This document shows, one piece after another, positions 5,782-55,118 of a stretch of 64,000 nucleotides of DNA. Within the stretch, counting starts at the first letter, position 1. Every line of letters begins with the position of its first letter. The notes under the pieces were generated by a model. The model ran no database searches, was not told the DNA's origin, and saw only the letters and a program-made list of their open reading frames with translations. The position numbers and the translations under genes were made by a program. Source of the DNA: Candidatus Woesearchaeota archaeon (GTDB lineage: Archaea; Nanobdellota; Nanobdellia; SCGC-AAA011-G17; PNOQ01); assembly GCA_964603065.1 (NCBI GenBank), contig CAZRTL010000004.1, positions 9,686 to 73,685 on the forward strand, in the 5' to 3' direction.

Positions 5782-7169
5782 TTCTTCGTAATTATGTAGC
5801 CTTCTTTAGAATCTTTTATTTCATAACCTTTAGAACTAATTTCGTCTCTTAATTTGTCTGATTCTTCCCAATCTTTGTCTTCTCTTGCTTTTAATCTTTT
5901 TTCTGCTAAACCTTTAATTTCTTTTGGGATTTTTTCTTCTTTGATATTTTTTAAATCTAAACCTAGGACTTCATCAAATTTGTAAAGTAATTCTAATTTT
6001 TCTTTAGAGCCTAATTCTTTATCCCTTAGGACATTCCATAAAACAGAAACGGCTTGAGGAGTATTTAGATCATCATTCAAACCAGATAAAAATTCCTTTT
6101 CATAAGTATTTTTTGTTTTGTTTGAATCTTTTTTTGTTTTTAATTCTAATATTATATTTTTTAATCTGTCATAAGCATTTTTTGCAGAATCTAAAACTTC
6201 TAATGAAAAAGCTAATTTTTTCCTATAATGTGTTAGTAAAGTTAAATATCTAAAATCTAAAGGAGAATAACCTTTTTCTCCTAAATCAGATATTGTGTAA
6301 ACATTTCCTTCAGACTTCGACATCTTTCCTTCTTTAAGAGTTAGCCACCTTAGGTGTAACCAATATTTTACCCAAGGTCTTTTTTTAGTAGCAGCTTCTG
6401 TTTGAGCTATTTCATTTGTATGATGGATTGGGATGTGTTCTTCTCCACCAGTGTGAATATCAAATTGTTCTCCTAAATATTTGGTTGACATTGCGGAACA
6501 TTCGATATGCCAGCCCGGAAACCCTCGGCCCCACGGTGAATCCCATTGCATAATATGGTTGGGCTGGTTTGTAATCCATAAAGCAAAATCTGAAGAATTT
6601 TTTCTTTCTGGGTCTCTTTCAACACGTGCCCCTTGTTTTAATTCTTCTAAATTTAAATTTCCTAGTTTAGTATAGTCTTTTGCTTTTGAAGTATCAAATA
6701 TAAGTCCAATTTTGGTTTTGTATGTGTAACCATTTTTTTCTATTTTTTTGATCATATCTATCATATCTTTAATATGTTCTGTTGCTTTTGCCCATTTTGT
6801 TGGTTCTAAAATATTTAATTTTTTTAAATCTTCAAAGAAAATATCTTCGTATTTTTTTGAGAGTTTTAATAATGATTCAGAAGTTAGAGGCAATTTTTCT
6901 CTTTTTAGAGCTTTCATCATCTTATCTTCACCTTCGTCTGCATCTGAAGTTAAGTGGCCTACATCTGTTATGTTGATTACATTTTTTACTTTTAGTTTGT
7001 TAAATAATAAGGTTCTTTTTAGAATATCTGTAAATATATACATACGCATGTTCCCGATGTGTTGATTCCAATAAGTAGTTGGACCACAAGAATAAGAAGT
7101 AGCAGTCCCTTTTTTTATTGGTTTGAACTCTTCCTTTTTTCTAGTTAGAGTATTATATAGTTTAAGCAT
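5778..7169 (-). CDS. cysS: cysteinyl-tRNA synthetase
   Basis: HIGN (HIGH) and KMSKS motifs, 463 aa; 4-bp overlap with the downstream gene. Confidence 0.9.
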   Translation of the reverse strand: MLKLYNTLTRKKEEFKPIKKGTATSYSCGPTTYWNQHIGNMRMYIFTDILKRTLLFNKLKVKNVINITDVGHLTSDADEGEDKMMKALKREKLPLTSESLLKLSKKYEDIFFEDLKKLNILEPTKWAKATEHIKDMIDMIKKIEKNGYTYKTKIGLIFDTSKAKDYTKLGNLNLEELKQGARVERDPERKNSSDFALWITNQPNHIMQWDSPWGRGFPGWHIECSAMSTKYLGEQFDIHTGGEEHIPIHHTNEIAQTEAATKKRPWVKYWLHLRWLTLKEGKMSKSEGNVYTISDLGEKGYSPLDFRYLTLLTHYRKKLAFSLEVLDSAKNAYDRLKNIILELKTKKDSNKTKNTYEKEFLSGLNDDLNTPQAVSVLWNVLRDKELGSKEKLELLYKFDEVLGLDLKNIKEEKIPKEIKGLAEKRLKAREDKDWEESDKLRDEISSKGYEIKDSKEGYIITKK

Positions 7170-8121: not shown

Positions 8122-9477
8122 ATGAAATATAAGACTCATAATTGCGGCGAACTAACTAAAAAAGAAGTTGGTAAGAATGTTATTTTATCTGGTTTTGTAG
8201 AATCAATTAGAAAGCACGGTAAGATTGGTTTTATTAATTTGAAGGATAGATATGGAATTACTCAAATTTTTTTAAGTAAAGAGTTTAATGAAGAATTATT
8301 GAAGTTAACTAGAGAGTCTGTTGTTAGAGTTGAAGGTGAAGTTAAGAAAAGACCTGATGCTAATAAAAAATTAAAAACGGGAGATATTGAAGTTTCTGCA
8401 AATAAATTTGAAATTTTAACTTTAGCTCCAGAATTGCCTTTAGAATTAAATGAAGATATTGAAAGTACTGAAGAAACTAGATTAAAATATAGATACTTAG
8501 ATTTGAGAAAACCTAAGATGCAGGATAATTTAGTTGTTAGGCATAAAATAATTAAAGCTATTAGAGATTTTTTGGATAAGGAGGATTTTTTAGATGTTGA
8601 AACTCCTTTACTAGCTAAGTCTACTCCAGAAGGAGCTAGAGATTATTTAGTTCCAAGTAGATTAGACAAGGGAAAGTTTTTTGCTTTACCACAAAGTCCG
8701 CAATTATTTAAACAGTTATTGATGATTGCTGGAATCGATAAATATTTTCAGATTGCTAAATGTATGAGAGATGAGGATTTGAGAGCAGATAGACAGCCGG
8801 AATTTACCCAATTAGATTTAGAGATGAGTTTTGTTGAGGAAGAAGATGTTTATGGTTTATTTGAGAAGATGTTAAAGTTTGTTTTCAAAGAAGTTTTGAA
8901 TGAAAATTTGAAAATTCCTTTTGAAAGAATTACTTACGAAGAATCTATGAAAAAATATAAATCAGATAAGCCCGATTTAAGAAAAAAAGGAGAAAAATTC
9001 AAGTTTGCTTGGGTGACTGAATTTCCATTATTTGAATGGAGTGAAGAGCAAAAGAGACATGTTTCTTGCCACCACCCGTTTACAGGAATACACCCAGAGG
9101 ATATCGATAAATTAGGTAAAACTCATGATATTAGAAGTAGAAGTTACGATTTAGTTATGAATGGTTGGGAGCTAGGTAGTGGAAGTGTAAGAATTCACGA
9201 TGGAAAATTACAAAGTGAAGTTTTCAAAGCTTTGAAGTTAGAGGAAAAAGATGCTAAAGAGAGATTTGGTTTCTTTTTAGACGCATTAAAGTTTGCTCCC
9301 CCTCATGCCGGCTTTGCAATAGGATTGGACCGGATGATAGCTTTGATTACTGAAAGTGAATCTATTAGAGAAGTTATTGCATTTCCAAAAAATAAAGATG
9401 CGAAAGATCTTATGTTGGATGCTCCAAGCAAAGTTGATAAAAAACAATTAGATGATTTAGGGATAAAGACAAAATGA
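8122..9477 (+). CDS. aspS: aspartyl-tRNA synthetase, archaeal type
   Basis: Class IIb motifs: FALPQSPQLFKQ, GxGxDR (AIGLDRM), N-terminal OB fold; 451 aa. Confidence 0.9.
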   Translation: MKYKTHNCGELTKKEVGKNVILSGFVESIRKHGKIGFINLKDRYGITQIFLSKEFNEELLKLTRESVVRVEGEVKKRPDANKKLKTGDIEVSANKFEILTLAPELPLELNEDIESTEETRLKYRYLDLRKPKMQDNLVVRHKIIKAIRDFLDKEDFLDVETPLLAKSTPEGARDYLVPSRLDKGKFFALPQSPQLFKQLLMIAGIDKYFQIAKCMRDEDLRADRQPEFTQLDLEMSFVEEEDVYGLFEKMLKFVFKEVLNENLKIPFERITYEESMKKYKSDKPDLRKKGEKFKFAWVTEFPLFEWSEEQKRHVSCHHPFTGIHPEDIDKLGKTHDIRSRSYDLVMNGWELGSGSVRIHDGKLQSEVFKALKLEEKDAKERFGFFLDALKFAPPHAGFAIGLDRMIALITESESIREVIAFPKNKDAKDLMLDAPSKVDKKQLDDLGIKTK

Positions 9478-10754
9478 AATTCATGCCAATAGAAGAAGCA
9501 TTAAAGAAAAAATCTGGAAAAGTAGCTATTCGGGGTTGGATTTATAGAATAAGGAAAATGAAAGATAAGAGTTTTATTGTTATGAGAGATTCTTCTGATA
9601 TTATTCAGTGTGTTTTGAAAACTCCTAAATTAGTTAAGGATGCTGATGATTTACTTATTGAAAGTTCTTTAGAGTTAGAGGGTACTTTGAATAAAGATAA
9701 GAGATCTCCCGGTGGTTATGAATTAAACATTTCTAAAATGAATATTATTCACAAGGCAGATGATTTCCCAATTGGTAAAGATCAAAGTCCTGAATTTTTA
9801 TTAGATCAAAGACATCTGTACATAAGAAGTAGAAAAATGACTGCAATTATGAAAATTAGAAGTACTGTTACTGGTGCTTTACATGAATATTTTAGAGGTA
9901 AAGATTTTTATGAATTTCAGAGTCCGATTATAATTCCTGGTGGAGCTGAAGAAGGGCCCACTATGTTTGAAATTAAATATTTTGATAGGCAAATGTTTTT
10001 GGCTCAAACTTGGCAATTGTATGCTGAAGCGGCAATGTTTGGTTTGGAGAAAATTTATTGTATTGCTCCTTCTTTCAGAGCGGAAAAGTCAAAAACTAGT
10101 AGACACTTAACTGAATACTGGCATACTGAAATGGAAGTTGCCTGGTGTGATTTAAGTCAACTAATGGATTATGCTGAAGAAATGGTCAAATTTGTTTTGG
10201 GTAAAGTTTTGAAGAAAAATAAAAAAGAGTTAGAACTTTTAGGTAGAGATGTTAAGAAATTAGAGCCTTCTCTAAAGAAAAAGTTTCCAAGAATTACTTA
10301 TGATGAGGCTCTAAAGAAATTGGAAAAAAACGGTATGAAGGTTGCTTGGGGTAAAGACTTGCGTACTTTGGAAGAAGAAAAACTAATGGAACTATATGAT
10401 ACTGTTGTTTTTGTAACTCACTATCCTAAAGAAGCTATGGCTTTTTACAAACCTAAGGACCCAAAAAATCCTAAAGTGTCCTTATGTTTTGATGCTCTAG
10501 GTCCTGAAGGGGTTGGAGAGTTGATTGGTGGAAGTGAGAGAGATACAAATATTAAAGAGTTAGTTGGTTCTTTAGAAAAATTAAATGAAAATATTGAAGA
10601 TTATAAATACTATTTAGATACAAGAAAATATGGTAGTGTCCCTCATGCTGGTTTTGGCTTAGGAACTGAAAGATTAATTAGATGGATATGTGGTTTGGAT
10701 TCAATAAAAGATGCCATAGGTTTTCCAAGAACAATACAGAGAACACAGCCTTAA
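9474..10754 (+). CDS. asnS: asparaginyl-tRNA synthetase
   Basis: Class IIb; N-terminal IRGWIYRIRK...FIVMRDSSDIIQCV; GLGTERL motif 3; ATGA overlap with aspS. Confidence 0.85.
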   Translation: MKFMPIEEALKKKSGKVAIRGWIYRIRKMKDKSFIVMRDSSDIIQCVLKTPKLVKDADDLLIESSLELEGTLNKDKRSPGGYELNISKMNIIHKADDFPIGKDQSPEFLLDQRHLYIRSRKMTAIMKIRSTVTGALHEYFRGKDFYEFQSPIIIPGGAEEGPTMFEIKYFDRQMFLAQTWQLYAEAAMFGLEKIYCIAPSFRAEKSKTSRHLTEYWHTEMEVAWCDLSQLMDYAEEMVKFVLGKVLKKNKKELELLGRDVKKLEPSLKKKFPRITYDEALKKLEKNGMKVAWGKDLRTLEEEKLMELYDTVVFVTHYPKEAMAFYKPKDPKNPKVSLCFDALGPEGVGELIGGSERDTNIKELVGSLEKLNENIEDYKYYLDTRKYGSVPHAGFGLGTERLIRWICGLDSIKDAIGFPRTIQRTQP

Positions 10755-16473: not shown

Positions 16474-16514
16474 ATCTTGTCAGCTTGCCACGCACACGGA
16501 CAGAATTTATAAAT
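16474..16514 (+). promoter_or_regulatory. conserved upstream motif + TATA box, copy 2
   Basis: ATCTTGTCAGCTTGCCACGCACACGGACAGAATTTATAAAT; ATG at 16535. Confidence 0.5.
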
Positions 16515-16534: not shown

Positions 16535-17287
16535 ATGAAAATTAATGAAGATCTTGCTGAAGCATTTGGAATTCATGCTGGAGATGGATATTTAAGAGTT
16601 AAAGAAAGAAACAGAGGCGAGATAGATATTAGTGGAAATATTGAAGAAAAAGGATATTATGATGACCACGTAGTTCCTTTGTTTAATAAAATATTTAATT
16701 TAGATATGGGAGGAAGATATTTTTCTAGAGGTACTTATGGGTTTGTTAATTGTCAAAAGGAAGTTAGAAACGTTTTTCTTGAAGCAGGTTTCCCTTCTGG
16801 TAAAAAATCGCAAATTGTAAAAACCCCAGATTGTATTTTGAATAGTGGAGATGAAAAAATATACTCTAAATTTTTAAGGGGATATTTTGATACTGATGGT
16901 TGTTTATATTTTTGTAACAAAAAGGGAGGGGGAAAATATTGTGATTTCAAGAAAAAGTTTCATTATTATCCTCTTTTATCAGTATCTAGTGTATCGAAAA
17001 GATTAATTGAGGATGTGGTGTTTATTCTTAATAGAATTGGATTGCCTCACTATACTTATGATTATCAACCAAAAAATAAAAGAGATAATCATAAATGGGT
17101 TATAACTATTGCTGGAAAAAGTAGACTAGAGAAATGGATGAAATTAATAGGCACTAAAAATCCAGTAAAGCTCAGTAGATATTTAGTTTGGAAAAAGTTT
17201 GGATTTTGTCCTCCACATACTACTTTAAAGCAAAGGGAAGATTTTTTAAATGATAAAGCAGATATCAATTTACTATATTCAGCTTAA
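16535..17287 (+). CDS. free-standing double-motif LAGLIDADG endonuclease-family protein
   Basis: Motif 1 LAEAFGIHAGDGYL, motif 2 FLRGYFDTDGCL; 250 aa. Confidence 0.75.
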   Translation: MKINEDLAEAFGIHAGDGYLRVKERNRGEIDISGNIEEKGYYDDHVVPLFNKIFNLDMGGRYFSRGTYGFVNCQKEVRNVFLEAGFPSGKKSQIVKTPDCILNSGDEKIYSKFLRGYFDTDGCLYFCNKKGGGKYCDFKKKFHYYPLLSVSSVSKRLIEDVVFILNRIGLPHYTYDYQPKNKRDNHKWVITIAGKSRLEKWMKLIGTKNPVKLSRYLVWKKFGFCPPHTTLKQREDFLNDKADINLLYSA

Positions 17288-17354: not shown

Positions 17355-17428
17355 GGGCCTGTAGTTTAATCTGGATAAAATTCTCGGTTTCGGCCCGAAG
17401 GATCCCGGTTCAAATCCGGGCGGGCCCG
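17355..17428 (+). tRNA. tRNA-Arg (anticodon TCG)
   Basis: Acceptor GGGCCTG/CGGGCCC, anticodon stem TCGG/CCGA with loop TTTCGGC, T-arm CCCGG-TTCAAAT-CCGGG, 74 nt, no encoded CCA. Confidence 0.7.
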
Positions 17429-19217: not shown

Positions 19218-20666
19218 ATGAAAAAACAGAGTTTAGAAGGAATTACGGTTAAAAAGTCTGAGAATTTTTCTGAGTGGTACACTCAAGTTATTCAGAAAGC
19301 AGAAATAGTTGATTTGAGACTTGGAGTTAAAGGATTTATTATAGTTAGACCGTGGGGAGCTTTAGCTATGGAAAAAATGTTTCGCCTTTATGAAGATGAA
19401 CTACAAAGAAAGGGCCATAGTCCTGTAATAATGCCTTCTGTTATTCCAGAATCAAATTTGAAGAAAGAATCTAGTCATGTTGAAGGTTTTACACCGGAGG
19501 TATTTTGGTTGGATGGAGACAAAGATGAAGAAAGACTTGCTTTGAGACCTACAAGTGAAACTGTTTTTACACCTATGTTTGACTATTGGGTTAGAAGTCA
19601 TAGAGATTTGCCTTTAAAATTATATCAGAAAGGTTCGGTTTTTAGATATGATACTAAAGCAACTAGGCCTTTGATTAGAGGTAGAGAGTTTAATTGGATA
19701 GAGGCACATGATGCTTTTTCAACTAGAGAAGAGGCAGAAGCTCAAGTTCAAGAAGATATTCAAATGACTGAGAATATTATGCATCAAAAATTTGGAGTTC
19801 CTTTTTTAGCTATGAAAAGACCGCAGTGGGATAAATTTGCGGGAGCAGAATATACTATTGGATCCGATGTTATTATGCCCGATGGAAAATTAATACAGCA
19901 GCCTTCTACTCATTACATGGGGCAGATATTTTCTAGAGCATTTGGATCTAAATTTATTGATAAACATGATAAGGAAGAGTATTTGTATACTACAGCTTAT
20001 GGTCCTGCAATTTCTAGAATTTTAGTTTCTATTATTTGCATGCATGGGGATGATAAAGGATTAGTTTTACCATATTGCATTTCGCCATTAAACGTGGTTG
20101 TAGTTCCCATATACAAGAAAAACAACAAGGATAAGGTTTTGAAGTATGTAAAAAGTATTGAAAAAAAACTAACTGGAGTTAAATATAAAGTTGATGATCG
20201 AGAAGAATACAGTCCTGGATGGAAATTTAATGAATGGGAATTAAAAGGTGTTCCGTTTAGGCTAGAAATTGGAGAGAAAGAGGCGAAGAGCAAAAAATTA
20301 TCTTTATTTATTAGAGACACAGGAGAAAAAATAAGTATTTCGTTAAGTGAATTGAAAAATCTGAATAAGATGGGTAAGGAATTTGATGAGAGATTATTGA
20401 AGAAAGCCGATAGTTTTATGAGGGGTAAAATTGTTGATTGTAAAACAAAAGTTGAAATTAAAAAAGCTATGTCAGATGGAAAAATAGCTCGTGTTCATTG
20501 GTGTTCTTTAGATGGAAATGGAGTTGAATGTGCCGAAGCAATAGAAAAAGATTTTTTAGCAGAAGTTAGGGGCACTATGGCTAACAAGAGAGAGAAATCG
20601 AAAGGCAATTGTGTAATGTGTAAGAAACCGGCTAGTGAAATGGTTTATGTTGCTAAAAGTTATTAA
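19218..20666 (+). CDS. proS: prolyl-tRNA synthetase, archaeal/eukaryotic type
   Basis: Class IIa motifs, FRYDTKATRPLIRGREF, C-terminal Zn-binding Cys cluster; 482 aa. Confidence 0.9.
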   Translation: MKKQSLEGITVKKSENFSEWYTQVIQKAEIVDLRLGVKGFIIVRPWGALAMEKMFRLYEDELQRKGHSPVIMPSVIPESNLKKESSHVEGFTPEVFWLDGDKDEERLALRPTSETVFTPMFDYWVRSHRDLPLKLYQKGSVFRYDTKATRPLIRGREFNWIEAHDAFSTREEAEAQVQEDIQMTENIMHQKFGVPFLAMKRPQWDKFAGAEYTIGSDVIMPDGKLIQQPSTHYMGQIFSRAFGSKFIDKHDKEEYLYTTAYGPAISRILVSIICMHGDDKGLVLPYCISPLNVVVVPIYKKNNKDKVLKYVKSIEKKLTGVKYKVDDREEYSPGWKFNEWELKGVPFRLEIGEKEAKSKKLSLFIRDTGEKISISLSELKNLNKMGKEFDERLLKKADSFMRGKIVDCKTKVEIKKAMSDGKIARVHWCSLDGNGVECAEAIEKDFLAEVRGTMANKREKSKGNCVMCKKPASEMVYVAKSY

Positions 20667-32760: not shown

Positions 32761-34482
32761 ATGGATTTAAAGAAGAAATATATAGAATTTTTTAAAAGTA
32801 AAGATCATAAGGAGATCAGAAATAGTTCTTTGGTTCCAGAAAATGATCCTACTGTTTTATTCACTACGGCTGGAATGCATCCTTTAGTTCCTTTTTTGCT
32901 TGGAGAAAAACATCCCTCTGGAAAAAAATTGGTTAATATTCAGAGATGTTTGAGAACTGGGGATATAGAAGAAGTGGGGGATGATACTCATTTAACGTTT
33001 TTTGAAATGTTGGGAAATTGGTCTTTGGGAGATTACGAGCGGGAAGATGCAATTAAGTTTACTTATGAGTTTTTTACAAAAGAATTAGGTTTAGATAAAG
33101 ATAAATTAGCTATTTCTGTTTTTAAAGGAGATAAAGATGTTCTTAAAGATGAAGAAAGTTATAATGTTTGGTTAGATTTGGGAGTTCCTAAGGAAAGAAT
33201 TGTTTTTTTAAATAGAAAAGAGAATTTTTGGGAACCTGCTGGGAAAACTGGCCCGTGTGGTCCCGATACAGAAATGTTCTATTATGTTGGTAGAAAGGCG
33301 CCTAAGAAATTTGATGTTAAGGATGAAAAATGGGTTGAAATTGGAAATGATGTTTTTATTGAGTATAACAAAGATGAAAAAGGCAAGTATAAAGAGTTAA
33401 AACAAAAGAATGTTGATTTCGGTGGAGGATATGAGAGATTATATTATATTCTAGAAGGTAAGAAAAATGTTTACGAATGTAGTTTATTTTTTCCAATTAT
33501 TGAAAAAATCAAAGAGTTATCTAAAAATAAAGATGAAAAAGCTTTAAGAAAAGTTGCTGACCATTTAAGAGCTTCAGTTTTTTTATTGATGGACGGTATT
33601 GTTCCTGCAAATGTTGATCAAGGTTATGTTTTGAGAAGGTTAATTAGAACTAGTGTTAGATATGGAAGAATTCTAGGAATAAATGATAATTTTTGTAAGG
33701 AGATTGGGAAGGTTGTTATTGATATTAATAAGAAAGGTTATCCTTTGTTAAAAGATAAGAAAGATTTGATTTTGGAAGAGTTAGATAAGGAAGAAACTAA
33801 ATTTAAACAAACTTTGGAAAAAGGTCTTAGAAGATTTGAAAAATTTAGTAAAGATAAAAAATTGAATGGAAAGGAATCCTTTTTGTTGTTCCAATCATTT
33901 GGATTTCCCATAGAAATGACTTTAGAATTAGCCAAAGAGAAAAAAGTTAAGGTTGATGTTAAAGGTTATAATGAAGAATTAAAGAGGCATCAAGAACTAA
34001 GTAGAACTGCTACAAAAGGTAAATTTGGAAGTGGTTTGGCAGATACTTCTACTGAAACAACTAAATTACACACTGCTTGTCATTTGTTACATTCTGCTTT
34101 GCAGGAAGTTCTAGGAGAAAAGGTGGAGCAAAGAGGTTCTAATATTAATGCCGAAAGATTAAGATTTGATTTTAGTTTTGATAGAAGATTAGAAGATGAT
34201 GAGTTGAAAAGAGTTGAAGATTTAGTTAATAAAAAAATAAAAGAAAGTATTGATATTGTAAAAAATGAAATGAGTGTTCAGGAAGCAAAAAAGAGGGGTG
34301 CCGAAGGTGCCTTTGAGCATAAGTATGGCGAGAAAGTTTTTGTTTATTTTGTTGGGAACTTTTCAAAAGAAATTTGTTCTGGTCCTCATGTTAAAAATAC
34401 TAAAGAGTTAGGTAAATTTAAAATTATTCAGCAAAAATCTGTTGGTTCTGGAGTTAGAAGAATAAAAGCCATTTTAGAATAA
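32761..34482 (+). CDS. alaS: alanyl-tRNA synthetase, short form (catalytic + editing, no C-Ala domain)
   Basis: N-terminal AlaRS catalytic signature (FTTAGMHP, RCLRTGDIE, GNWSFGDY-like), editing HxxxH (HTACHLLH) and CxxxH (CSGPH), ends GVRRIKA; only 573 aa. Confidence 0.85.
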   Translation: MDLKKKYIEFFKSKDHKEIRNSSLVPENDPTVLFTTAGMHPLVPFLLGEKHPSGKKLVNIQRCLRTGDIEEVGDDTHLTFFEMLGNWSLGDYEREDAIKFTYEFFTKELGLDKDKLAISVFKGDKDVLKDEESYNVWLDLGVPKERIVFLNRKENFWEPAGKTGPCGPDTEMFYYVGRKAPKKFDVKDEKWVEIGNDVFIEYNKDEKGKYKELKQKNVDFGGGYERLYYILEGKKNVYECSLFFPIIEKIKELSKNKDEKALRKVADHLRASVFLLMDGIVPANVDQGYVLRRLIRTSVRYGRILGINDNFCKEIGKVVIDINKKGYPLLKDKKDLILEELDKEETKFKQTLEKGLRRFEKFSKDKKLNGKESFLLFQSFGFPIEMTLELAKEKKVKVDVKGYNEELKRHQELSRTATKGKFGSGLADTSTETTKLHTACHLLHSALQEVLGEKVEQRGSNINAERLRFDFSFDRRLEDDELKRVEDLVNKKIKESIDIVKNEMSVQEAKKRGAEGAFEHKYGEKVFVYFVGNFSKEICSGPHVKNTKELGKFKIIQQKSVGSGVRRIKAILE

Positions 34483-36269: not shown

Positions 36270-38876
36270 CTATTCTATTTGTATCCCTGGTTTTAATGGC
36301 ATAGCTTTTGGATTGTTTTTTTCTATTTCAATTGGAATTCCCAGTTCTTCAGTAATTAAATCTTTATTTTTCATCAAAGTTTCAATCTCTGTTTTTTGAT
36401 CTAACAATACTTTTGGAATTTTTGATTCATTTTTTAATAAAGAAGGAACTATTTTAGAAATATCTTTAGCGTGTTTTTTATCCATGACTTTGTCCATTAT
36501 CTTTTTCAAGTCGTGAGTTTTTTCCATTTCTTTTTTCAAATTTTTAATTAGATTATACTTCCATTCTTCAGCTACTGAAACTGTAGCTTTTTTAGGTTCT
36601 ATCTTAATAAAATCAAAAATTCTTTTTATATCTCTTATTGTATTTTCAATTAGATCTTGTTGTGCGTCAATTTCTGGGTCTATTTTAGATTCCTCAAAAG
36701 TTGGCCATTCTTGTAACATTACAAATTCTTTATTTCCTAATTTAAACCATAACTCTTCTGCTAAGTGGGGCATAAAAGGACTAATTAACTTAGACAAAAC
36801 TTCTATTGATTCTTTTGTTATTTCATTCTTTGATAAAAAGTTAATATATTCTGATAATAATATTGTTGACATGTTGAATTGCATATTTTCAATTGTTTCA
36901 GTAATTTCTTTGGTTGTTTTATTTTGAATGTTATCTAATTCTGGATAAGATTTTTTTATGAATTGTTTTTCGGTTAAAGGCAAAATTTTATTTGTTAATC
37001 TAAATGCTCCTTCAATTCCTTTGTCTGTCCAGTCTTTATCCTTATCTGGAGCCGATAATGAATATAGAAAAAACCTTGCTGTATCTATCCCGTATTTTTC
37101 TGCTATTGGTTCTTGATTTACAATGTTTCCTAGAGATTTTGACATTTTGTGTCCATCTCTATTTAACATTCCTTGATTGAATAATTTTTGAGCTGGCTCG
37201 TCAAAACTTAATAACTTTAAATCTCTTAGAACTTTTGTTATGAACCTACAATAGATTAAGTGAAGTGTTGCGTGTTCTTTTCCCCCTATGTATAAATCTA
37301 TTGGCATCCAGCGATTTACTTTTTCCTTTGAGAACATTTCATCGAAATTATGGGAGTCTATAAATCTTAGGAAGTACCATGAAGAGTCCATAAATGTGTC
37401 CATTGTATCTGTTTCTCTTTTTGCTTTTGCACCACACTTTGAACATAAAGCATTTTTATATTCTTCAGATGTTTCTAGAGGGTTTCCTCCTTTTGTGAAA
37501 GTTACGTCTTCTGGTAATTTTACAGGCAGGTTCTCTTCTTTCTCTGGAACCAGACCACAGGATTCACAATTTAACATTGGGATAGGTGTTCCCCAGTATC
37601 TTTGTCTTGATAATAACCAGTCTCTTAATCTATATTGAATTGTTTTTTTACCTAATTTTTGTTCTTCTAGATATTTTGTTATTTTTTTTATTGCGTCTCT
37701 GTTTTTTAAATCGTTAAAATCATTTGAATTAATTAGGATTCCATCTTCTATGTATGCCTTTTCTAAAAGTTCAGGTAATTCTTTATCTTTAGGTTTAATT
37801 ACAGTTTTGATATCTATATCGAATTTTTTTGCGAATTCGAAATCTCTTTGATCATGAGCTGGTACGGCCATTACTGCTCCGCCACCATAATCTGCAACTA
37901 CGAAGTTTCCTATATAGATTGGAACCTCTTCTTTTGTTAATGGATTAATTGCATATTTTCCGATAAACATTCCTTCTTTTTCTACGCTTTCAGAAATTCT
38001 TTCAAATTTGTCTTGAGTTGATACTTTTTTTATGAATTTTTTTGTTTCTTCTTCATATTTAGTTCCTTTAATTAACTCTAAAACTTTTGGATGTTCAGGG
38101 GCAAATACCATAAAAGTAACCCCATGAATTGTATCTGCTCTTGTTGTAAATATTGGAATCTCTTCGTTTGTATCTTTAAATTTGAAATTTATTGTTGTAC
38201 CTTCAGATTCTCCTATCCAGGTTTTTTGCATCTGTTTGATGTTTTCTGGCCAATCTAATTTTTCTAAATCTTTTAGTAATTCTTTTGTGTAAGCCGTGGT
38301 TTTGAAGAACCACTGGTTTAGTTCTTTTAGTATAACCTCTGTTTTACTGTGTCTCCAACAACAACCATTTACAACCTGTTCATTTGCTAATACAGTGTTA
38401 CACTCTGAACACCAATTTACTGGGGCCGTTTTTTTGTAGGCCAATCCTTTTTCAAACATTTTTAGGAAAAGCCATTGATTCCATTTGTAATATTCTGGAT
38501 CATGAGAGTAAATCATTCTGGACCAATCATAACTTATTCCTAATTCCTTAAGTTGTCTAATATAATTTGTTATTGCTTTATCTGTGTAAATTTTTGGGTG
38601 AGTATTGTCTTTCATTGCCGCATTTTCTGCCGGCAATCCAAAAGAATCAAATCCTGATGGATGTAAGACATTAAAACCTTTCATTTTTTTATATCTAGCT
38701 ATTACATCCGTAATTGTGTAGTTTACAGCATGGCCCATATGGAGGCCATAAGCCGATGGATAAGAATACATCCCTAGGCAATAAAATTTTGGCTTCTTTG
38801 AAGTTTCTTCTGTTAAGAAGATTTCTGATTTTTCCCAGGCCAATTGCCACTTTTTCTCAATCTTATGGTAATTCAT
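36270..38876 (-). CDS. leuS: leucyl-tRNA synthetase, archaeal type
   Basis: HMGH (HIGH variant), KMSKS, CP1 editing insertion; 868 aa. Confidence 0.9.
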   Translation of the reverse strand: MNYHKIEKKWQLAWEKSEIFLTEETSKKPKFYCLGMYSYPSAYGLHMGHAVNYTITDVIARYKKMKGFNVLHPSGFDSFGLPAENAAMKDNTHPKIYTDKAITNYIRQLKELGISYDWSRMIYSHDPEYYKWNQWLFLKMFEKGLAYKKTAPVNWCSECNTVLANEQVVNGCCWRHSKTEVILKELNQWFFKTTAYTKELLKDLEKLDWPENIKQMQKTWIGESEGTTINFKFKDTNEEIPIFTTRADTIHGVTFMVFAPEHPKVLELIKGTKYEEETKKFIKKVSTQDKFERISESVEKEGMFIGKYAINPLTKEEVPIYIGNFVVADYGGGAVMAVPAHDQRDFEFAKKFDIDIKTVIKPKDKELPELLEKAYIEDGILINSNDFNDLKNRDAIKKITKYLEEQKLGKKTIQYRLRDWLLSRQRYWGTPIPMLNCESCGLVPEKEENLPVKLPEDVTFTKGGNPLETSEEYKNALCSKCGAKAKRETDTMDTFMDSSWYFLRFIDSHNFDEMFSKEKVNRWMPIDLYIGGKEHATLHLIYCRFITKVLRDLKLLSFDEPAQKLFNQGMLNRDGHKMSKSLGNIVNQEPIAEKYGIDTARFFLYSLSAPDKDKDWTDKGIEGAFRLTNKILPLTEKQFIKKSYPELDNIQNKTTKEITETIENMQFNMSTILLSEYINFLSKNEITKESIEVLSKLISPFMPHLAEELWFKLGNKEFVMLQEWPTFEESKIDPEIDAQQDLIENTIRDIKRIFDFIKIEPKKATVSVAEEWKYNLIKNLKKEMEKTHDLKKIMDKVMDKKHAKDISKIVPSLLKNESKIPKVLLDQKTEIETLMKNKDLITEELGIPIEIEKNNPKAMPLKPGIQIE

Positions 38877-39530: not shown

Positions 39531-39571
39531 ATCTTGTCAGCTTGCCACGCACGCAGGTAGAGTTTATAAAT
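39531..39571 (+). promoter_or_regulatory. conserved upstream motif + TATA box, copy 4
   Basis: ATCTTGTCAGCTTGCCACGCACGCAGGTAGAGTTTATAAAT; ATG at 39592. Confidence 0.5.
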
Positions 39572-39591: not shown

Positions 39592-40437
39592 ATGGAAATG
39601 GATGTTGAAAGCACTTCTAAATTAATAAGGGGTAAGAAGGAAATTTGTGTTTTTTATAATGATAAAATTTTTGAAGAAGTTATGTCTAATTTGAATCCAA
39701 AAGAAATTATGGGAATTTCTAGAAGATCTGTTTATTATTGGAAGCAAAAAGAGAGACCTATTCCAGTTTCTCATTTAGTCAGTATTTGTAAAAATAATAA
39801 TATTGAAAAAATTAATCTTGTGTCTTTATCTACCAATAGCGGAAATAAAATTAATTTACCTGAAAGCAATAATTTATCTTTATATCATTTTTTGGGATTA
39901 TTATTGGGAGACGGATGTCTTTGTATAAGTAAAGAAAGAGAATTGAAGAGACAAAGCTACACAGTTAGAATTGCTGTTAATAGCAAAAATAGAATAAATC
40001 AAATTTCTAGATTAATGGAGTCTCTTTTTGGAATTAAACCTAGTTGTCATAAATGTAAAGGGTGCTATGAAGTTTGTATTTACTCTAAGGCTTTGTTATT
40101 TTTCTTGAATACATATTATGAAATCCCCATTGGTGAAAAATATCCACTTATGAAGGTTCCTTTGAGAATAAAAAATGATTTTGATAGTATAAGATATTTT
40201 CTAAGAGGATTAATGGATAGCGATGGAAATCAATATATCTATAGGGGGAGATTGTGTTTTCAATTGAGACAAAAATCTGGAGAATTTCTTAGTGAAGTCT
40301 ATAACTTATTTCATAAAATTGGTATGAATATAAATGGGCCCTATTTTGATAAAGCTAATAATTCTTGGGTGATTTGGTGTAGTAAAAAAAACATTGTAGA
40401 TAAATTTATAAATGAAATAGATGCTCTTAAAATTTAG
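39592..40437 (+). CDS. LAGLIDADG endonuclease-family protein with N-terminal HTH
   Basis: Motif 1 LYHFLGLLLGDGCL, motif 2 FLRGLMDSDGNQ; N-terminal HTH-like segment (EIMGISRRSVYYWKQK); 281 aa. Confidence 0.7.
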   Translation: MEMDVESTSKLIRGKKEICVFYNDKIFEEVMSNLNPKEIMGISRRSVYYWKQKERPIPVSHLVSICKNNNIEKINLVSLSTNSGNKINLPESNNLSLYHFLGLLLGDGCLCISKERELKRQSYTVRIAVNSKNRINQISRLMESLFGIKPSCHKCKGCYEVCIYSKALLFFLNTYYEIPIGEKYPLMKVPLRIKNDFDSIRYFLRGLMDSDGNQYIYRGRLCFQLRQKSGEFLSEVYNLFHKIGMNINGPYFDKANNSWVIWCSKKNIVDKFINEIDALKI

Positions 40438-40438
40438 T

Positions 40439-40560
40439 GGACTGGTAGCTCAGCTTGGATAGAGCACTAAAGAAGTTTTGCGCGAGTATGCTTCTGTGTA
40501 GGCCTTCTAAACCAAGTTGAAGAAAGCTAGGGGTCGAGGGTTCAAATCCCTTCCAGTCCG
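40439..40560 (+). tRNA. tRNA-like gene interrupted by a ~48-nt insertion (intron-containing tRNA or pseudo-tRNA); anticodon unresolved
   Basis: Perfect 7-bp acceptor stem GGACTGG/CCAGTCC; canonical D-arm TAGCTCAGCTTGGATAGAGCA; T-arm GAGGG-TTCAAAT-CCCTT; ~48 extra nt between them. No single-intron model gives a canonical anticodon loop. It starts 2 nt after the stop codon of the LAGLIDADG gene. Confidence 0.5.
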
Positions 40561-40566
40561 CTTTTT

Positions 40567-41088
40567 TTAAAAATCAAAATTAACAAGTAATTTGTATTCT
40601 AATTCTCTGTCTTGATCTAGATTTAATTTGTATTGTGCACGAGTCCCTCTGATATTTCTTGTTAATTCAAAATTTAGATCGCTTAGTCTTGAAGATCCAT
40701 CGTAACCTAAATCTAATATGGCTTCCGTACTTAGTTTAAATTGTCCCGGTAAATTTGCATTTAAAGCATTTCTAAGGATTATTCCATCCCGATCTAAGCC
40801 ATATACATCTGTTTTAATATTAGAATCAAAATAAGGTGGGCCAAATTGTGTATTCGGAGAATATTTTTTGAGGGATTTTTCCAATTCAGCCAAAGTATTA
40901 TCCCGAGGTTTTTCTTTGGCAGAAAGATTTAAGGAGCTTCCATCAAACATTTCAACCAATCTTCTGTTTTCCTCTTGTTTTAGCTGTTTTTTAACATAAT
41001 TTATATCTATGTCTTGAGAAGTGAATTGGAGCACAGCTAGTAATATTATTGATGCTTTTTTTCCAATATTTTTCCATAGTGTCATTTT
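40567..41088 (-). CDS. secreted hypothetical protein
   Basis: Probable start at MTLWKNIGKKASIILLAVLQF (signal peptide); the longer ORF in the track runs into tRNA-Cys, so the internal start is preferred. Confidence 0.4.
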   Translation of the reverse strand, partial: KMTLWKNIGKKASIILLAVLQFTSQDIDINYVKKQLKQEENRRLVEMFDGSSLNLSAKEKPRDNTLAELEKSLKKYSPNTQFGPPYFDSNIKTDVYGLDRDGIILRNALNANLPGQFKLSTEAILDLGYDGSSRLSDLNFELTRNIRGTRAQYKLNLDQDRELEYKLLVNFDF

Positions 41089-41178: not shown

Positions 41179-41249
41179 GCGCACGTGGCCAAGCGGTAAG
41201 GCAAGAGGCTGCAACCCTCTGATCCCCGGTTCGATTCCGGGCGTGCGCT
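41179..41249 (+). tRNA. tRNA-Cys (anticodon GCA)
   Basis: Acceptor GCGCACG/CGTGCGC, discriminator U73, anticodon stem AGAGG/CCTCT with loop CTGCAAC, T-arm CCCGG-TTCGATT-CCGGG; 71 nt. Confidence 0.8.
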
Positions 41250-55075: not shown

Positions 55076-55118
55076 ATCTTGTCAGCTTGCCACGCACGCG
55101 GATAGGATATTTAAATGG
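55076..55118 (+). promoter_or_regulatory. conserved upstream motif + TATA box, copy 5
   Basis: ATCTTGTCAGCTTGCCACGCACGCGGATAGGATATTTAAAT; first plausible ATG at 55150 preceded by GGTGA. Confidence 0.5.

What the first reader, a model, noticed from the sequence alone, without database searches (positions are those of the whole stretch)
40435..40560. tRNA-like gene with a ~48-nt insertion starting 2 nt after a LAGLIDADG gene; anticodon arm cannot be reconstructed
The acceptor stem is perfect (GGACTGG/CCAGTCC) and the D-arm and T-arm (GTTCAAATCC) are canonical. About 48 extra nucleotides sit where the anticodon arm should be. I tried every single-intron splice position and none produced a 5-bp stem with a 7-nt loop carrying U33. 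The insertion contains internal repeats: GAAG/CTTCT occurs twice and CTAAA occurs twice. This could be a tRNA with a non-canonical intron, or with more than one intron, as occurs in some small archaea. It could instead be a disrupted tRNA, with the adjacent homing-endonuclease-family gene implicated. The zero-distance linkage between a LAGLIDADG ORF and an interrupted tRNA is striking, given that such endonucleases spread through RNA introns.
Basis: seen in the sequence. Interest (0 to 1): 0.6.

Follow-up and report, generated by a model that had tools for sequence, protein, structure and literature searches.

The report
Two-intron tRNA-Arg beside optional LAGLIDADG gene
The odd "tRNA-like" stretch is a working arginine tRNA gene of a tiny archaeon split by two short introns, and it forms an optional package with a neighbouring DNA-cutting enzyme gene; close relatives that lack the enzyme gene also lack the introns, which hints at how such introns spread.

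Summary
Window 40439-40560 (+) is a tRNA gene (Rfam 42.5 bits) with 47 extra nucleotides in the anticodon arm, and no single intron can explain it. Exactly one two-intron solution gives a cloverleaf with bulge-helix-bulge (BHB) splice motifs at both introns. These are a 32-nt intron at position 29/30 (40470-40501) and a 15-nt canonical intron at 37/38 (40510-40524). The product is tRNA-Arg(UCU). Relatives confirm both junctions, including intronless alleles with exactly the predicted exon joins. This part is a new member of a known kind: multi-intron tRNAs are known in DPANN and TACK archaea.

The link to the LAGLIDADG gene is also real, and it is more interesting. All 19 loci encoding the 281-aa I-DmoI-like protein or a homologue (36-100% identity) have tRNA-Arg(UCU) abutting the 3' end of the gene. 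Seventeen of those tRNAs carry introns. Three related lineages that lack the gene at the same syntenic site all carry an intronless tRNA with its own promoter. The tRNA promoter of the gene-bearing allele lies inside the last codons of the ORF. More distant LAGLIDADG clades abut other, often multi-intron, tRNA genes.

My best reading is an optional, probably mobile, endonuclease-plus-intron-bearing-tRNA cassette. This reading is an inference; no cleavage or splicing was shown.

The parts
40439..40560 (+). Precursor tRNA-Arg(UCU) gene, 122 nt, from G1 to discriminator G73. No CCA is encoded.
   Evidence: Rfam RF00005 42.5 bits, model positions 1-71. Cloverleaf solved. Orthologues.
40439..40469 (+). 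Exon 1: tRNA positions 1-29 (acceptor 5' strand, D-arm, A26, C27 U28 A29).
   Evidence: An intronless allele joins ...GAGCACTA directly to GCCTTCT (alignment A3).
40470..40501 (+). Intron 1: 32 nt at non-canonical position 29/30. Relaxed BHB of the HBh' type. The 4-bp central helix is GCAC/GUGU, flanked by 3-nt bulges UA|A and AG|G. The inner helix is 6 bp (AGAAGU/GCUUCU). There is no outer helix, and the central helix borrows two D-stem bases.
   Evidence: The same intron is 30/32 identical in L084. L093 has a 32-nt intron at 28/29 with a different but still perfect central helix, AGCG/CGCU. The intron is absent from L092, L087, L117, L119 and L121.
40502..40509 (+). Exon 2: 8 nt, GCCUUCUA, tRNA positions 30-37. 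The anticodon UCU is at 40506-40508.
40510..40524 (+). Intron 2: 15 nt at the canonical position 37/38. The central helix pairs anticodon-loop CUUC with intron GAAG. The bulges are UA|A and AA|A. The outer helix is the 5-bp anticodon stem once intron 1 is out (3 bp before that).
   Evidence: A canonical intron of 12-46 nt sits at the same place in 17 of 19 loci that carry the LAGLIDADG gene.
40525..40560 (+). Exon 3: tRNA positions 38-73 (A38, anticodon-stem 3' strand GCUAG, variable loop GGGUC, T-arm, acceptor 3' strand, discriminator G).
40562..40568 (+). Run of seven T directly after the tRNA, a probable archaeal transcription terminator.
   Evidence: Read from the sequence. The function is inferred.
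39592..40437 (+). Free-standing LAGLIDADG gene, 281 aa. It has an N-terminal domain of about 85 aa and an I-DmoI-like core with two motifs (LLGDGC with D107; MDSDGN with D211).
   Evidence: PF14528. Both catalytic Asp are invariant in 22 homologues. PDB profile hits to I-DmoI and intein endonucleases. Model pLDDT 92.8, target-normalised TM-score about 0.8 to I-DmoI.
40405..40412 (+). TTTATAAA, the probable TATA box of the tRNA gene, 27-34 nt upstream of G1. It lies inside codons F272-I273-N274 of the LAGLIDADG ORF.
   Evidence: Sequence. F272 and I273 are invariant. Synonymous sites of the last 20 codons are 87-94% conserved against about 60-70% elsewhere in the gene. The promoter function is inferred.
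39533..39557 (+). 25-nt GC-rich element CTTGTCAGCTTGCCACGCACGCAGG, 5 nt upstream of the TATA box of the LAGLIDADG gene (TTTATAAAT, 39563-39571). It starts at the left boundary of the DNA that is specific to the gene-bearing allele.
   Evidence: Three copies in the window against 0 expected. Among fetched loci it occurs only upstream of the LAGLIDADG gene. Junction comparison.

Best explanation
SHOWN BY SEQUENCE AND COMPARISON. 40439-40560 is a functional tRNA-Arg(UCU) gene of a Woesearchaeota-like DPANN archaeon. It is interrupted by two bulge-helix-bulge introns: 32 nt at 29/30 (relaxed HBh' type) and 15 nt at the canonical 37/38. The precursor is presumably transcribed from a TATA box inside the last codons of the upstream ORF and terminated at the T-run. 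The archaeal splicing endonuclease (EndA) would cut at the four bulges and an RtcB-type ligase would join the exons, giving a 75-nt tRNA with the anticodon arm CUAGC-CUUCUAA-GCUAG.

INFERRED. The tRNA and the abutting I-DmoI-like LAGLIDADG gene form one optional cassette, which I call the 'H allele'. It consists of the GC-rich element, a promoter, the endonuclease ORF whose 3' end supplies the tRNA promoter, and the intron-bearing tRNA. Related lineages carry an alternative 'E allele' at the same syntenic site, with a native promoter, an intronless tRNA and no endonuclease gene.

The most likely mechanism is homing of a free-standing endonuclease gene. The enzyme cuts the E allele in or just upstream of the tRNA gene. 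Repair from an H allele then copies the endonuclease gene together with the tRNA body and its intron(s). There are two sub-variants. In the first, the introns interrupt the recognition site and protect the H allele ('collaborative homing', as with F-CphI and the psbA intron of cyanophages). In the second, the recognition site spans the 5' junction and the introns merely hitch-hike by co-conversion.

My confidence is about 0.95 for the two-intron tRNA, about 0.75 for the optional cassette, and about 0.5 for homing as the mechanism. The single confidence figure given for this explanation (0.6) is for the whole statement taken together.
For: tRNA and introns:
- There are 0 single-intron solutions and 23 combinatorial two-intron arms. 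Only one has a perfect 4-bp central helix with 3-nt bulges at both introns. None of 2000 shuffles reaches this.
- L084 has the same two introns with compensatory acceptor-stem changes.
- L092 has only the canonical intron and an uninterrupted CUAGC stem. L117, L121 and L119 have no intron and exactly the predicted joins.
- The 16 spliced or intronless orthologues pair at 100% of 336 cells, and 16 of 21 pairs show compensatory change.
- Position 29/30 is a known non-canonical intron site (PMC4090602). DPANN archaea, including Woesearchaeota, are known to have disrupted tRNA genes (PMC5829648).

Cassette:
- 19 of 19 loci encoding the protein or a homologue have tRNA-Arg(UCU) 1-21 nt after the ORF or overlapping it, in at least two different gene neighbourhoods.
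- Many homologues end in '...APVAQPG', which is a translation of the tRNA 5' end.
- 17 of the 19 tRNAs carry introns.
- Three lineages without the gene (L117/L118 and L121 in the same clade as L084, with LeuRS 84-90% identical to it; L119 in a sister clade) all have intronless tRNAs and share a native promoter.
- The left junction is precise...GTAGTAAGGTTT|TCTTGTCAGC... against ...GTAGTAAGGTTT|ATAAAACAAG....
- The acceptor stem differs between L084 (GGAUCGG) and the E alleles of the same clade (GGGUCCG), although the flanks are 82-84% identical. The whole tRNA therefore belongs to the swapped unit.
- Both catalytic Asp are invariant, and the fold is I-DmoI-like.

Generality:
- A second LAGLIDADG ORF in this window lies 66 nt upstream of tRNA-Arg(UCG).
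- A distant clade lies upstream of a tRNA-Lys(CUU) with 1-3 introns.
- A sister-family gene overlaps an intron-bearing tRNA-Gln.
- 23 of 121 relatives end in tails that translate tRNA 5' ends, against fewer than 0.3 expected.
Against: - No cleavage, splicing or expression data exist, and no EndA gene was found in the window. 30 of the 37 ORFs of 200 aa or more, plus four small ORFs next to the tRNA, were scanned against Pfam.
- L102/L103 have an intact LAGLIDADG gene next to an intronless tRNA-Arg(UCU). The window's second LAGLIDADG gene also precedes an intronless tRNA. Introns therefore cannot be a universal immunity device.
- LAGLIDADG divergence tracks LeuRS divergence (70/72, 71/70, 46/55, 44/53, 40/54 %). 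There is no excess similarity apart from the last 20 codons. This looks like long vertical inheritance under purifying selection rather than recent transfer.
- The direction of change, gain of H or loss to E, is unresolved.
- Only three E lineages have DNA. Two more are known from gene lists alone.
- The loci are phylogenetically non-independent, so the intron/gene correlation (17/19 against 0/3) is only suggestive.
Confidence: 0.6

Rival explanations
1. Frozen synteny. The LAGLIDADG gene is an old resident that stays next to tRNA-Arg(UCU) only because the tRNA promoter has come to lie inside its 3' end. On this view the introns are unrelated, and the E alleles arose by independent loss of the gene and of the introns.
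For: LAGLIDADG and LeuRS identities co-vary. LeuRS-LAGLIDADG-tRNA synteny extends to lineages with about 53-55% LeuRS identity. The promoter is embedded in the ORF. L102/L103 combine the gene with an intronless tRNA.
Against: A captured promoter would preserve only the last 40 nt or so, not an intact 281-codon ORF with invariant catalytic residues in 19 or more lineages. Three independent losses would each have had to remove the gene and all introns precisely. They would also have had to regenerate the same native promoter sequence shared by L117, L121 and L119. Other LAGLIDADG clades abut other tRNAs.
Confidence: 0.2
2. Domesticated LAGLIDADG protein. The protein works for the host at this locus rather than as a selfish endonuclease. 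It could be a DNA-binding regulator of tRNA transcription, or a maturase-like helper for folding and splicing of the intron-bearing pre-tRNA.
For: Conservation at a housekeeping-like rate. An extra N-terminal domain of about 85 aa with a conserved SxRSxYYW...RPIP motif. LAGLIDADG maturases exist, and bI3 maturase is among the structural matches.
Against: Close relatives do without the gene altogether. Maturases and WhiA-type regulators typically lose the catalytic acids (my own knowledge), whereas here both are invariant. BHB splicing is not known to need a helper protein. The gene also accompanies intronless tRNAs (L102/L103).
Confidence: 0.12
3. Disrupted tRNA. The 47-nt insertion is debris that has inactivated the tRNA, perhaps through endonuclease-caused damage.
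For: Standard predictors fail or miscall the gene. The minimum-free-energy fold of the precursor is not a cloverleaf.
Against: Both insertions have exact BHB geometry. They are 92-97% conserved in L084, while the flanking DNA is 56-62% identical. The spliced product is a perfect tRNA with covariation. A terminator and a promoter are in place.
Confidence: 0.03
4. Self/non-self nuclease. The endonuclease is kept by the host to cut incoming DNA that carries an intronless tRNA-Arg(UCU) sequence, such as viral tRNA genes or attP sites. The host copy would be protected by its introns or by its 5' junction.
For: The catalytic residues are intact in what looks like a vertically inherited gene. Introns as protection of tRNA genes against integrating elements is a published idea (Randau and Soll, cited in PMC4090602).
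Against: There is no direct evidence. No homologue was found in 50,697 phage records. Relatives lack the gene. L102/L103 have no intron.
Confidence: 0.05

Closest known systems
Multi-intron and non-canonical-intron tRNA genes of archaea (Thermoproteales, Nanoarchaeota and other DPANN; reviewed in PMC4090602; Kaneta et al. 2018, PMC5829648)
   Same: BHB or relaxed HBh' motifs. One canonical 37/38 intron is combined with one non-canonical intron. 29/30 is a listed non-canonical position. The host is a DPANN archaeon.
   Different: Nothing essential differs for the tRNA itself. This particular tRNA-Arg(UCU) with 29/30 plus 37/38 introns is simply a further example. What is new is that the intron content varies (0, 1 or 2) among close relatives in step with a neighbouring gene.
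I-DmoI, and I-Tsp061I / I-PorI-type enzymes: LAGLIDADG endonucleases encoded inside BHB-type introns of archaeal rRNA genes
   Same: Monomeric two-motif LAGLIDADG fold (target-normalised TM-score about 0.8). Archaeal host. Association with a stable-RNA gene that carries BHB introns.
   Different: Here the ORF is free-standing. It lies upstream of the RNA gene rather than inside the intron, which at 15-32 nt is far too short to hold it. It has an extra N-terminal domain. Its 3' end doubles as the tRNA promoter.
[quoted passage not shown] 2009, described in PMC6083498), and T4 mobE / I-TevIII (PMC2790892)
   Same: A free-standing endonuclease gene lies next to an intron-bearing gene. Alleles without the endonuclease gene are intronless. 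The endonuclease gene and the intron would move together.
   Different: Those systems are phage-borne, with self-splicing group I introns in protein-coding genes and non-LAGLIDADG enzymes. Here the setting is a cellular archaeon, the introns are protein-spliced BHB introns in a tRNA, and the enzyme is LAGLIDADG. Cleavage at the intron insertion site is untested, and one lineage has the gene without an intron.
Phage T4 SegB, a free-standing homing endonuclease in the tRNA gene cluster (my own knowledge; mentioned in PMC13096335)
   Same: A free-standing homing endonuclease gene embedded among tRNA genes, using a tRNA-gene region as its target and landing site.
   Different: SegB is a GIY-YIG enzyme of a phage. 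No introns are involved and the promoter is not shared.

Membership tests
Archaeal BHB (bulge-helix-bulge) tRNA intron | Two 3-nt bulges separated by a 4-bp helix, with the cut after the second base of each bulge. | tested here: met
   Intron 1 has GCAC/GUGU with bulges UA|A and AG|G. Intron 2 has CUUC/GAAG with bulges UA|A and AA|A.
Archaeal BHB (bulge-helix-bulge) tRNA intron | Flanking helices h (outer) and h' (inner). The strict form has both; the relaxed HBh' or hBH forms have one. | tested here: met
   Intron 2 has h = 5 bp (the anticodon stem) and h' = 1 bp, so it is near-strict and minimal. Intron 1 has h' = 6 bp and h = 0, so it is the relaxed HBh' type.
Archaeal BHB (bulge-helix-bulge) tRNA intron | Removal of the intron restores a canonical cloverleaf. 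| tested here: met
   A unique solution CUAGC-CUUCUAA-GCUAG. It is identical to the natural intronless alleles. Pairing is 100% with covariation.
Archaeal BHB (bulge-helix-bulge) tRNA intron | The host has a splicing endonuclease able to cut relaxed motifs (an alpha2-beta2 or epsilon2 enzyme, or an alpha4 enzyme with the L3 loop). | tested here: inconclusive
   The host is archaeal (XPD, archaeal-type ProRS, Nre, Cdc6, L10P). No EndA was found among the ORFs of this 64-kb window that were scanned against Pfam. The rest of the genome is not available.
Archaeal BHB (bulge-helix-bulge) tRNA intron | Splicing is observed, as mature tRNA and excised or circular intron. | not testable with these tools
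   This needs RNA data.
LAGLIDADG homing endonuclease (I-DmoI-like, monomeric) | Two LAGLIDADG motifs, each ending in a catalytic acidic residue. | tested here: met
   LLGDGC (D107) and MDSDGN (D211) are invariant in 22 sequences. Both motifs were found in 12 of 13 further loci; in L096 the regular expression for the first motif did not match.
LAGLIDADG homing endonuclease (I-DmoI-like, monomeric) | Tandem alpha-beta-beta-alpha-beta-beta-alpha fold. | tested here: met
   AlphaFold model with pLDDT 92.8. Foldseek against I-DmoI gives E = 4e-11, target-normalised TM-score 0.81 and rmsd 2.6 A. The model is a prediction, not a solved structure.
LAGLIDADG homing endonuclease (I-DmoI-like, monomeric) | Sporadic presence or absence among close relatives, with a defined empty site. 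| tested here: met
   L084/L120 carry the gene, while L117/L118 and L121 lack it at LeuRS 84-90% identity. The left junction is precise.
LAGLIDADG homing endonuclease (I-DmoI-like, monomeric) | Site-specific double-strand cleavage of the allele that lacks the gene. | not testable with these tools
   This needs a biochemical assay on E-allele DNA.
LAGLIDADG homing endonuclease (I-DmoI-like, monomeric) | Gene phylogeny incongruent with the host (horizontal spread). | tested here: not met
   Pairwise identities of the LAGLIDADG protein track those of LeuRS. There is no excess similarity except in the promoter-bearing last 20 codons. The sample is small and no tree was built.
Collaborative homing (free-standing endonuclease gene plus protective intron) | The endonuclease gene is adjacent to an intron-bearing gene, and alleles without the endonuclease gene are intronless. 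| tested here: met
   17 of 19 H loci carry introns, and 3 of 3 E lineages are intronless.
Collaborative homing (free-standing endonuclease gene plus protective intron) | The intron is required to protect the host allele from its own endonuclease. | tested here: not met
   L102/L103 have an intact endonuclease gene next to an intronless tRNA. This is one lineage, and enzyme activity is unknown.
Collaborative homing (free-standing endonuclease gene plus protective intron) | The enzyme cuts the intronless allele at the intron insertion site. | not testable with these tools
   This needs cleavage mapping.

The most novel reading that the evidence does not exclude
Free-standing LAGLIDADG endonuclease genes docked at the 5' flank of tRNA genes are a widespread class of archaeal mobile element, found in DPANN and also in GC-rich soil archaea. 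On this reading they drive horizontal gain and turnover of BHB tRNA introns by co-conversion. In many cases the introns would double as the self-immunity that lets the endonuclease coexist with its target. That would supply the missing DNA-level mechanism for archaeal tRNA intron gain and 'transposition'.
Probability: 0.3. Interest if true: 0.85.

Novelty: new variant of a known kind. Interest (0 to 1): 0.7.

Why it matters
The tRNA alone is a tidy but ordinary example of a multi-intron archaeal tRNA that standard predictors miss or miscall. That is useful for annotation, because tRNA-Arg(UCU) would otherwise appear to be absent from this genome.

The cassette matters more. [quoted passage not shown] Here close relatives offer a natural comparison. 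The same tRNA exists with 0, 1 or 2 introns, and intron presence goes with an abutting gene for an I-DmoI-like endonuclease with intact catalytic residues.

This makes the question directly testable. One can express the protein, offer it the intronless allele, and map the cut. It also points to a large, apparently undescribed set of tRNA-flanking LAGLIDADG genes whose 3' ends overlap tRNA promoters or the tRNA itself.

Tried and rejected
- Default ARAGORN does not find the gene. With introns allowed it forces 'tRNA-Pro(agg), intron 25 nt'. I rejected this call because it ignores the second intron and disagrees with all orthologues.
- Single-intron enumeration gave 0 solutions.
- Of the 23 combinatorial two-intron arms, 22 were rejected because at least one intron lacks a 4-bp central helix.
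- The unconstrained minimum-free-energy fold of the precursor is not a cloverleaf and is uninformative.
- Sub-threshold Rfam hits (sR24 and a plastid 3'UTR element) are chance matches.
- The LeuRS loci of GTDB species representatives (L004-L012, L040) have neither the LAGLIDADG gene nor tRNA-Arg(UCU) nearby, so they gave no comparison.
- I looked for a co-conversion gradient, meaning higher identity nearer the tRNA. Only the last 20 codons stand out, and the embedded promoter explains that equally well.
- I considered the 25-nt GC-rich element as a cassette terminus. A third copy sits before unrelated small ORFs, so a shared promoter or operator is more likely.
- I considered that E alleles are internal deletions of the ORF between short repeats. 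The similarity of the E promoter to the ORF 3' end beyond the BRE/TATA is weak, so this stays unresolved.
- A tblastn search against phage records gave no match.
- Three look-ups returned gene lists but no DNA.
Full report
1. THE OBSERVATION

The sequence at 40439-40560 (+) reads GGACUGG-UA-GCUC-AGCUUGGAUA-GAGC-A, then 64 nt, then GGGUC-GAGGG-UUCAAAU-CCCUU-CCAGUCC-G. Rfam's tRNA model matches it end to end at 42.5 bits (gathering score 29) with a 58-nt insertion in the anticodon arm. ARAGORN in default mode does not report it. The upstream ORF (39592-40437) ends with TAG at 40435-40437, one base before tRNA position 1. It matches PF14528 LAGLIDADG_3.

2. SOLVING THE ANTICODON ARM

I enumerated every way of deleting one or two segments from the 64 nt so as to leave a 5-bp stem and a 7-nt loop with U33 and a purine at position 37. 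One segment gives 0 solutions. Two segments give 23 different arms.

I then scored each candidate intron for the archaeal bulge-helix-bulge geometry: a 4-bp central helix flanked by 3-nt bulges, with the cut after the second bulge base. Only one combination has a perfect central helix at both introns.
- Intron 1 is 40470-40501, 32 nt, between tRNA positions 29 and 30. Its central helix is GCAC/GUGU, its bulges are UA|A and AG|G, and its inner helix AGAAGU/GCUUCU has 6 bp. It has no outer helix, so it is the relaxed HBh' type.
- Intron 2 is 40510-40524, 15 nt, at the canonical 37/38 site. Anticodon-loop CUUC pairs with intron GAAG, the bulges are UA|A and AA|A, and the outer helix is the anticodon stem.
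- The mature arm is CUAGC-CUUCUAA-GCUAG, so the gene encodes tRNA-Arg(UCU).

None of 2000 shuffles of the 64-nt region gave an equivalent solution. A T7 run follows the gene at 40562-40568.

3. THE HOST

The window encodes an XPD helicase, an archaeal-type ProRS, Nre, Cdc6/Orc1, ribosomal proteins L1 and L10P, and a wyosine-synthesis enzyme. Its bacterial-type LeuRS is closest to Candidatus Woesearchaeota / Nanoarchaeota MAGs. The same contig family comes from a JGI metagenome.

Non-canonical and multiple tRNA introns are documented for DPANN, including a Woesearchaeota genome. They are linked to EndA variants with broadened specificity (PMC5829648). Position 29/30 is a listed non-canonical site (PMC4090602). 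The tRNA is thus a new member of a known kind.

4. COMPARATIVE CONFIRMATION OF THE JUNCTIONS

- L084 (LAGLIDADG protein 70% identical) has the same two introns. The 32-nt intron is 30/32 identical and the 15-nt intron 12/15. Its acceptor stem is GGAUCGG/CCGGUCC, a compensatory variant.
- L092 (71%) has only a 17-nt canonical intron and an uninterrupted CUAGC stem.
- L093 has a 32-nt intron one position earlier (28/29). Its central helix AGCG/CGCU is different but again perfect. It also has a 12-nt canonical intron.
- Three loci have no intron and read exactly ...GAGCACTA-GCCTTCTA-AGCTAG... or a compensated equivalent.
- On an alignment of 16 spliced or intronless orthologues, the cloverleaf is paired in 100% of 336 cells. 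Compensatory changes occur in 16 of 21 pairs, four of them in the anticodon stem. No shuffle or slid control comes close.

The 'disrupted tRNA' reading is therefore rejected.

5. THE LAGLIDADG GENE

The protein has 31 full-length relatives of 274-294 aa at 36-100% identity. Both motif aspartates (D107 in LLGDGC, D211 in MDSDGN) are invariant. A profile search of the PDB hits I-DmoI and intein endonuclease domains. An AlphaFold model with pLDDT 92.8 superposes on I-DmoI at a target-normalised TM-score of about 0.8 and rmsd of about 2.6 A. An N-terminal domain of about 85 aa is additional.

6. THE LINKAGE IS CONSERVED

- In every locus I could read, tRNA-Arg(UCU) starts 1-21 nt after the ORF match or overlaps it. 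These loci are the window, L084, L087 and L090 from look-ups, and L092-L106 from a metagenome scan. That makes 19 of 19, with two truncated by contig ends.
- The surrounding genes differ between these loci. Some have a LeuRS neighbourhood and others a TFIIB / S8e / LSm neighbourhood.
- Many homologues end in '...APVAQPG'. This is the translation of GCC CCT GTA GCT CAG CCT GGA TAG, the tRNA 5' end, with the stop codon in the D-loop.
- The TATA box for the tRNA (TTTATAAA, 40405-40412) lies in codons 272-274 of the ORF. F272 and I273 are invariant. Synonymous sites in the last 20 codons are 87-94% conserved, against about 60-70% in the rest of the gene. The ORF's 3' end therefore probably doubles as the tRNA promoter; this is an inference.
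- Intron content among these loci is as follows. Three lineages have two introns (window, L084, L093). Most have the canonical intron only, at 12-46 nt. L102/L103 have none.

7. RELATIVES WITHOUT THE GENE

Using LeuRS relatives, I read the syntenic site in further lineages.
- L117/L118 have LeuRS 90% identical to L084, with flanking DNA 82-84% identical. L121 is 84-86% identical, and L119 belongs to a sister clade at about 76%.
- All three lack the LAGLIDADG gene. All three carry an intronless tRNA-Arg(UCU) preceded by a shared native promoter, TTTATAAAA.A.GAAT.GCCTCA.
- Two more loci, known from gene lists only, also lack a gene of about 280 aa there.
- The left boundary is sharp. L084 reads ...TTGCTGTAGTAAGGTTT|TCTTGTCAGCTTGTCACGC... 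and L121 reads ...TTGTTGTAGTAAGGTTT|ATAAAACAAGAATAGCCTCATTTTTATTAC|tRNA.
- On the right, similarity resumes inside the 3' part of the tRNA. The acceptor stem of L084 differs from that of the E alleles of its own clade at three base pairs.

Two allele classes therefore exist. H has the endonuclease gene plus an intron-bearing tRNA. E has a native promoter plus an intronless tRNA. The two classes are interspersed among close relatives and differ as whole units.

8. MECHANISM

This pattern has four parts: catalytic residues intact, sporadic presence, a precise empty site, and co-variation of flanking markers. It is what a free-standing homing endonuclease gene produces.

Because the endonuclease gene lies within 40-80 bp of the intron sites, any repair tract that copies the gene would also copy the introns. 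I therefore propose endonuclease-driven co-conversion of BHB tRNA introns. There are two variants. In one, the introns split the recognition site and give immunity. This is collaborative homing, as described for F-CphI and psbA (PMC6083498) and for mobE / I-TevIII (PMC2790892). In the other, the site spans the 5' junction and the introns hitch-hike.

Several points count against a simple version of this model.
- L102/L103 keep an intact gene next to an intronless tRNA.
- LAGLIDADG identities track LeuRS identities (70/72, 71/70, 46/55, 44/53, 40/54 %). No region of excess similarity exists beyond the promoter-bearing end. The H allele is therefore old and largely vertically inherited in the sampled lineages.
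- Whether E alleles are ancestral, reacquired by recombination, or products of deletion is unresolved.

The rival explanations are frozen synteny, a domesticated protein, and a defence nuclease. I give them about 0.2, 0.12 and 0.05.

9. GENERALITY

- The same window holds a second LAGLIDADG_3 ORF (16535-17287) 66 nt upstream of the intronless tRNA-Arg(UCG) at 17355-17428. Two of the window's three tRNA genes therefore have such a neighbour.
- A distant clade (21-25% identity, 211 aa, GC-rich soil and peat contigs L109-L115) lies 14 nt (L114) to about 26 nt (L109) upstream of a tRNA-Lys(CUU) in the two loci where the stop codon was located. That tRNA carries 1-3 introns at four different positions. 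A TATA-like TTTAAT again lies inside the ORF end.
- A sister-family protein (P0039, L116) has its stop codon overlapping a tRNA-Gln(CUG) with a 10-nt intron.
- Of 121 free-standing-size relatives from an exhaustive profile search, 23 end in peptide tails that are translations of tRNA 5' ends. Fewer than 0.3 are expected.
- I found no paper describing this association. The one paper that mentions both LAGLIDADG and Woesearchaeota concerns group I introns in rRNA genes.

10. VERDICT

The finding is confirmed and explained. It is a functional two-intron tRNA-Arg(UCU), which is ordinary for DPANN and of annotation value. It is embedded in an optional LAGLIDADG-tRNA cassette whose distribution ties endonuclease presence to intron presence.

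The cassette is best filed as a new variant of a known kind: free-standing homing endonuclease with collaborative homing, transposed to archaeal BHB tRNA introns. Its mechanism is inferred, not shown.

I score interest at 0.7, because the cassette makes the origin and mobility of archaeal tRNA introns experimentally testable.

Noticed in passing
window 16535-17287 (+) and 17355-17428 (+): A second LAGLIDADG_3 ORF (250 aa, PF14528 E=8e-11, motifs HAGDGYL and FDTDGCL, no N-terminal extra domain) lies 66 nt upstream, on the same strand, of the intronless tRNA-Arg(UCG). Two of the three tRNA genes in the window therefore have a LAGLIDADG gene directly upstream.
   Followed up: partly
window 16476-16500, 39533-39557, 55078-55102 (all +): A 25-nt GC-rich element, CTTGTCAGCTTGCCACGCACGC(A/G)G(G/A), occurs three times against 0 expected. 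Each copy sits about 5 nt upstream of a TATA box. Two copies precede the two LAGLIDADG genes and the third precedes small ORFs of unknown function. Among fetched loci it is found only upstream of the LAGLIDADG gene, starting at the left boundary of the allele-specific DNA. It is probably a shared operator or promoter module.
   Followed up: partly
L109-L111, L113-L115 (e.g. L114 ORF 2992-3627, tRNA 3642-3765): A distant LAGLIDADG clade (211-212 aa, 21-25% identity, GC-rich soil and peat archaea) sits just upstream of a tRNA-Lys(CUU). Across the six loci that tRNA carries 1-3 introns drawn from four positions: D-loop, about 25/26, 37/38 and T-arm.
   Followed up: partly
L116 1193-2176 (ORF) and about 2174-2258 (tRNA): The sister-family LAGLIDADG protein P0039 (327 aa) has a stop codon that overlaps the first base of a tRNA. 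I read this as tRNA-Gln(CUG) with a minimal 10-nt intron at 37/38. ARAGORN calls it 'Pyl(cta)'.
   Followed up: partly
proteins P0032-P0181; L102 2263-3150; L094 3001-3894: Many LAGLIDADG ORFs of this superfamily run into the downstream tRNA gene. 23 of 121 end in tails such as ...ALVAQSG...SPVV or ...ASVA. In L102 and L094 the ORF reads as far as the anticodon arm or the intron. How a stop codon inside a tRNA is compatible with 5' processing of that tRNA is unclear.
   Followed up: partly
window 40470-40501 compared with L084 4879-4910: The 32-nt intron is 30/32 identical between two lineages whose LAGLIDADG and LeuRS proteins are only 70-72% identical and whose neighbouring intergenic DNA is 56-62% identical. 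Its 13-nt loop seems constrained beyond what a BHB motif needs, and I have no explanation.
   Followed up: no
window 36270-38876 (-): The LeuRS is of the bacterial type. Beyond the DPANN hits, its best matches are Firmicutes and other bacteria at 45-51% identity, and the same type is shared by many Woesearchaeota and other DPANN MAGs. This suggests an old inter-domain transfer.
   Followed up: no
window 41179-41249 (+) and the same position in most related loci: An intronless tRNA-Cys(GCA) follows tRNA-Arg(UCU) at distances from 3 nt to about 2.5 kb in nearly all relatives, with or without the LAGLIDADG gene. It is an old tRNA-Arg/tRNA-Cys pair that serves as an internal control without introns.
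   Followed up: partly
window 5778-7169, 8122-10754, 19218-20666, 32761-34482, 36270-38876: The window has an unusual density of aminoacyl-tRNA synthetase genes: CysRS, two adjacent class II Asp/Asn/Lys-type genes, ProRS, AlaRS and LeuRS.
   Followed up: no
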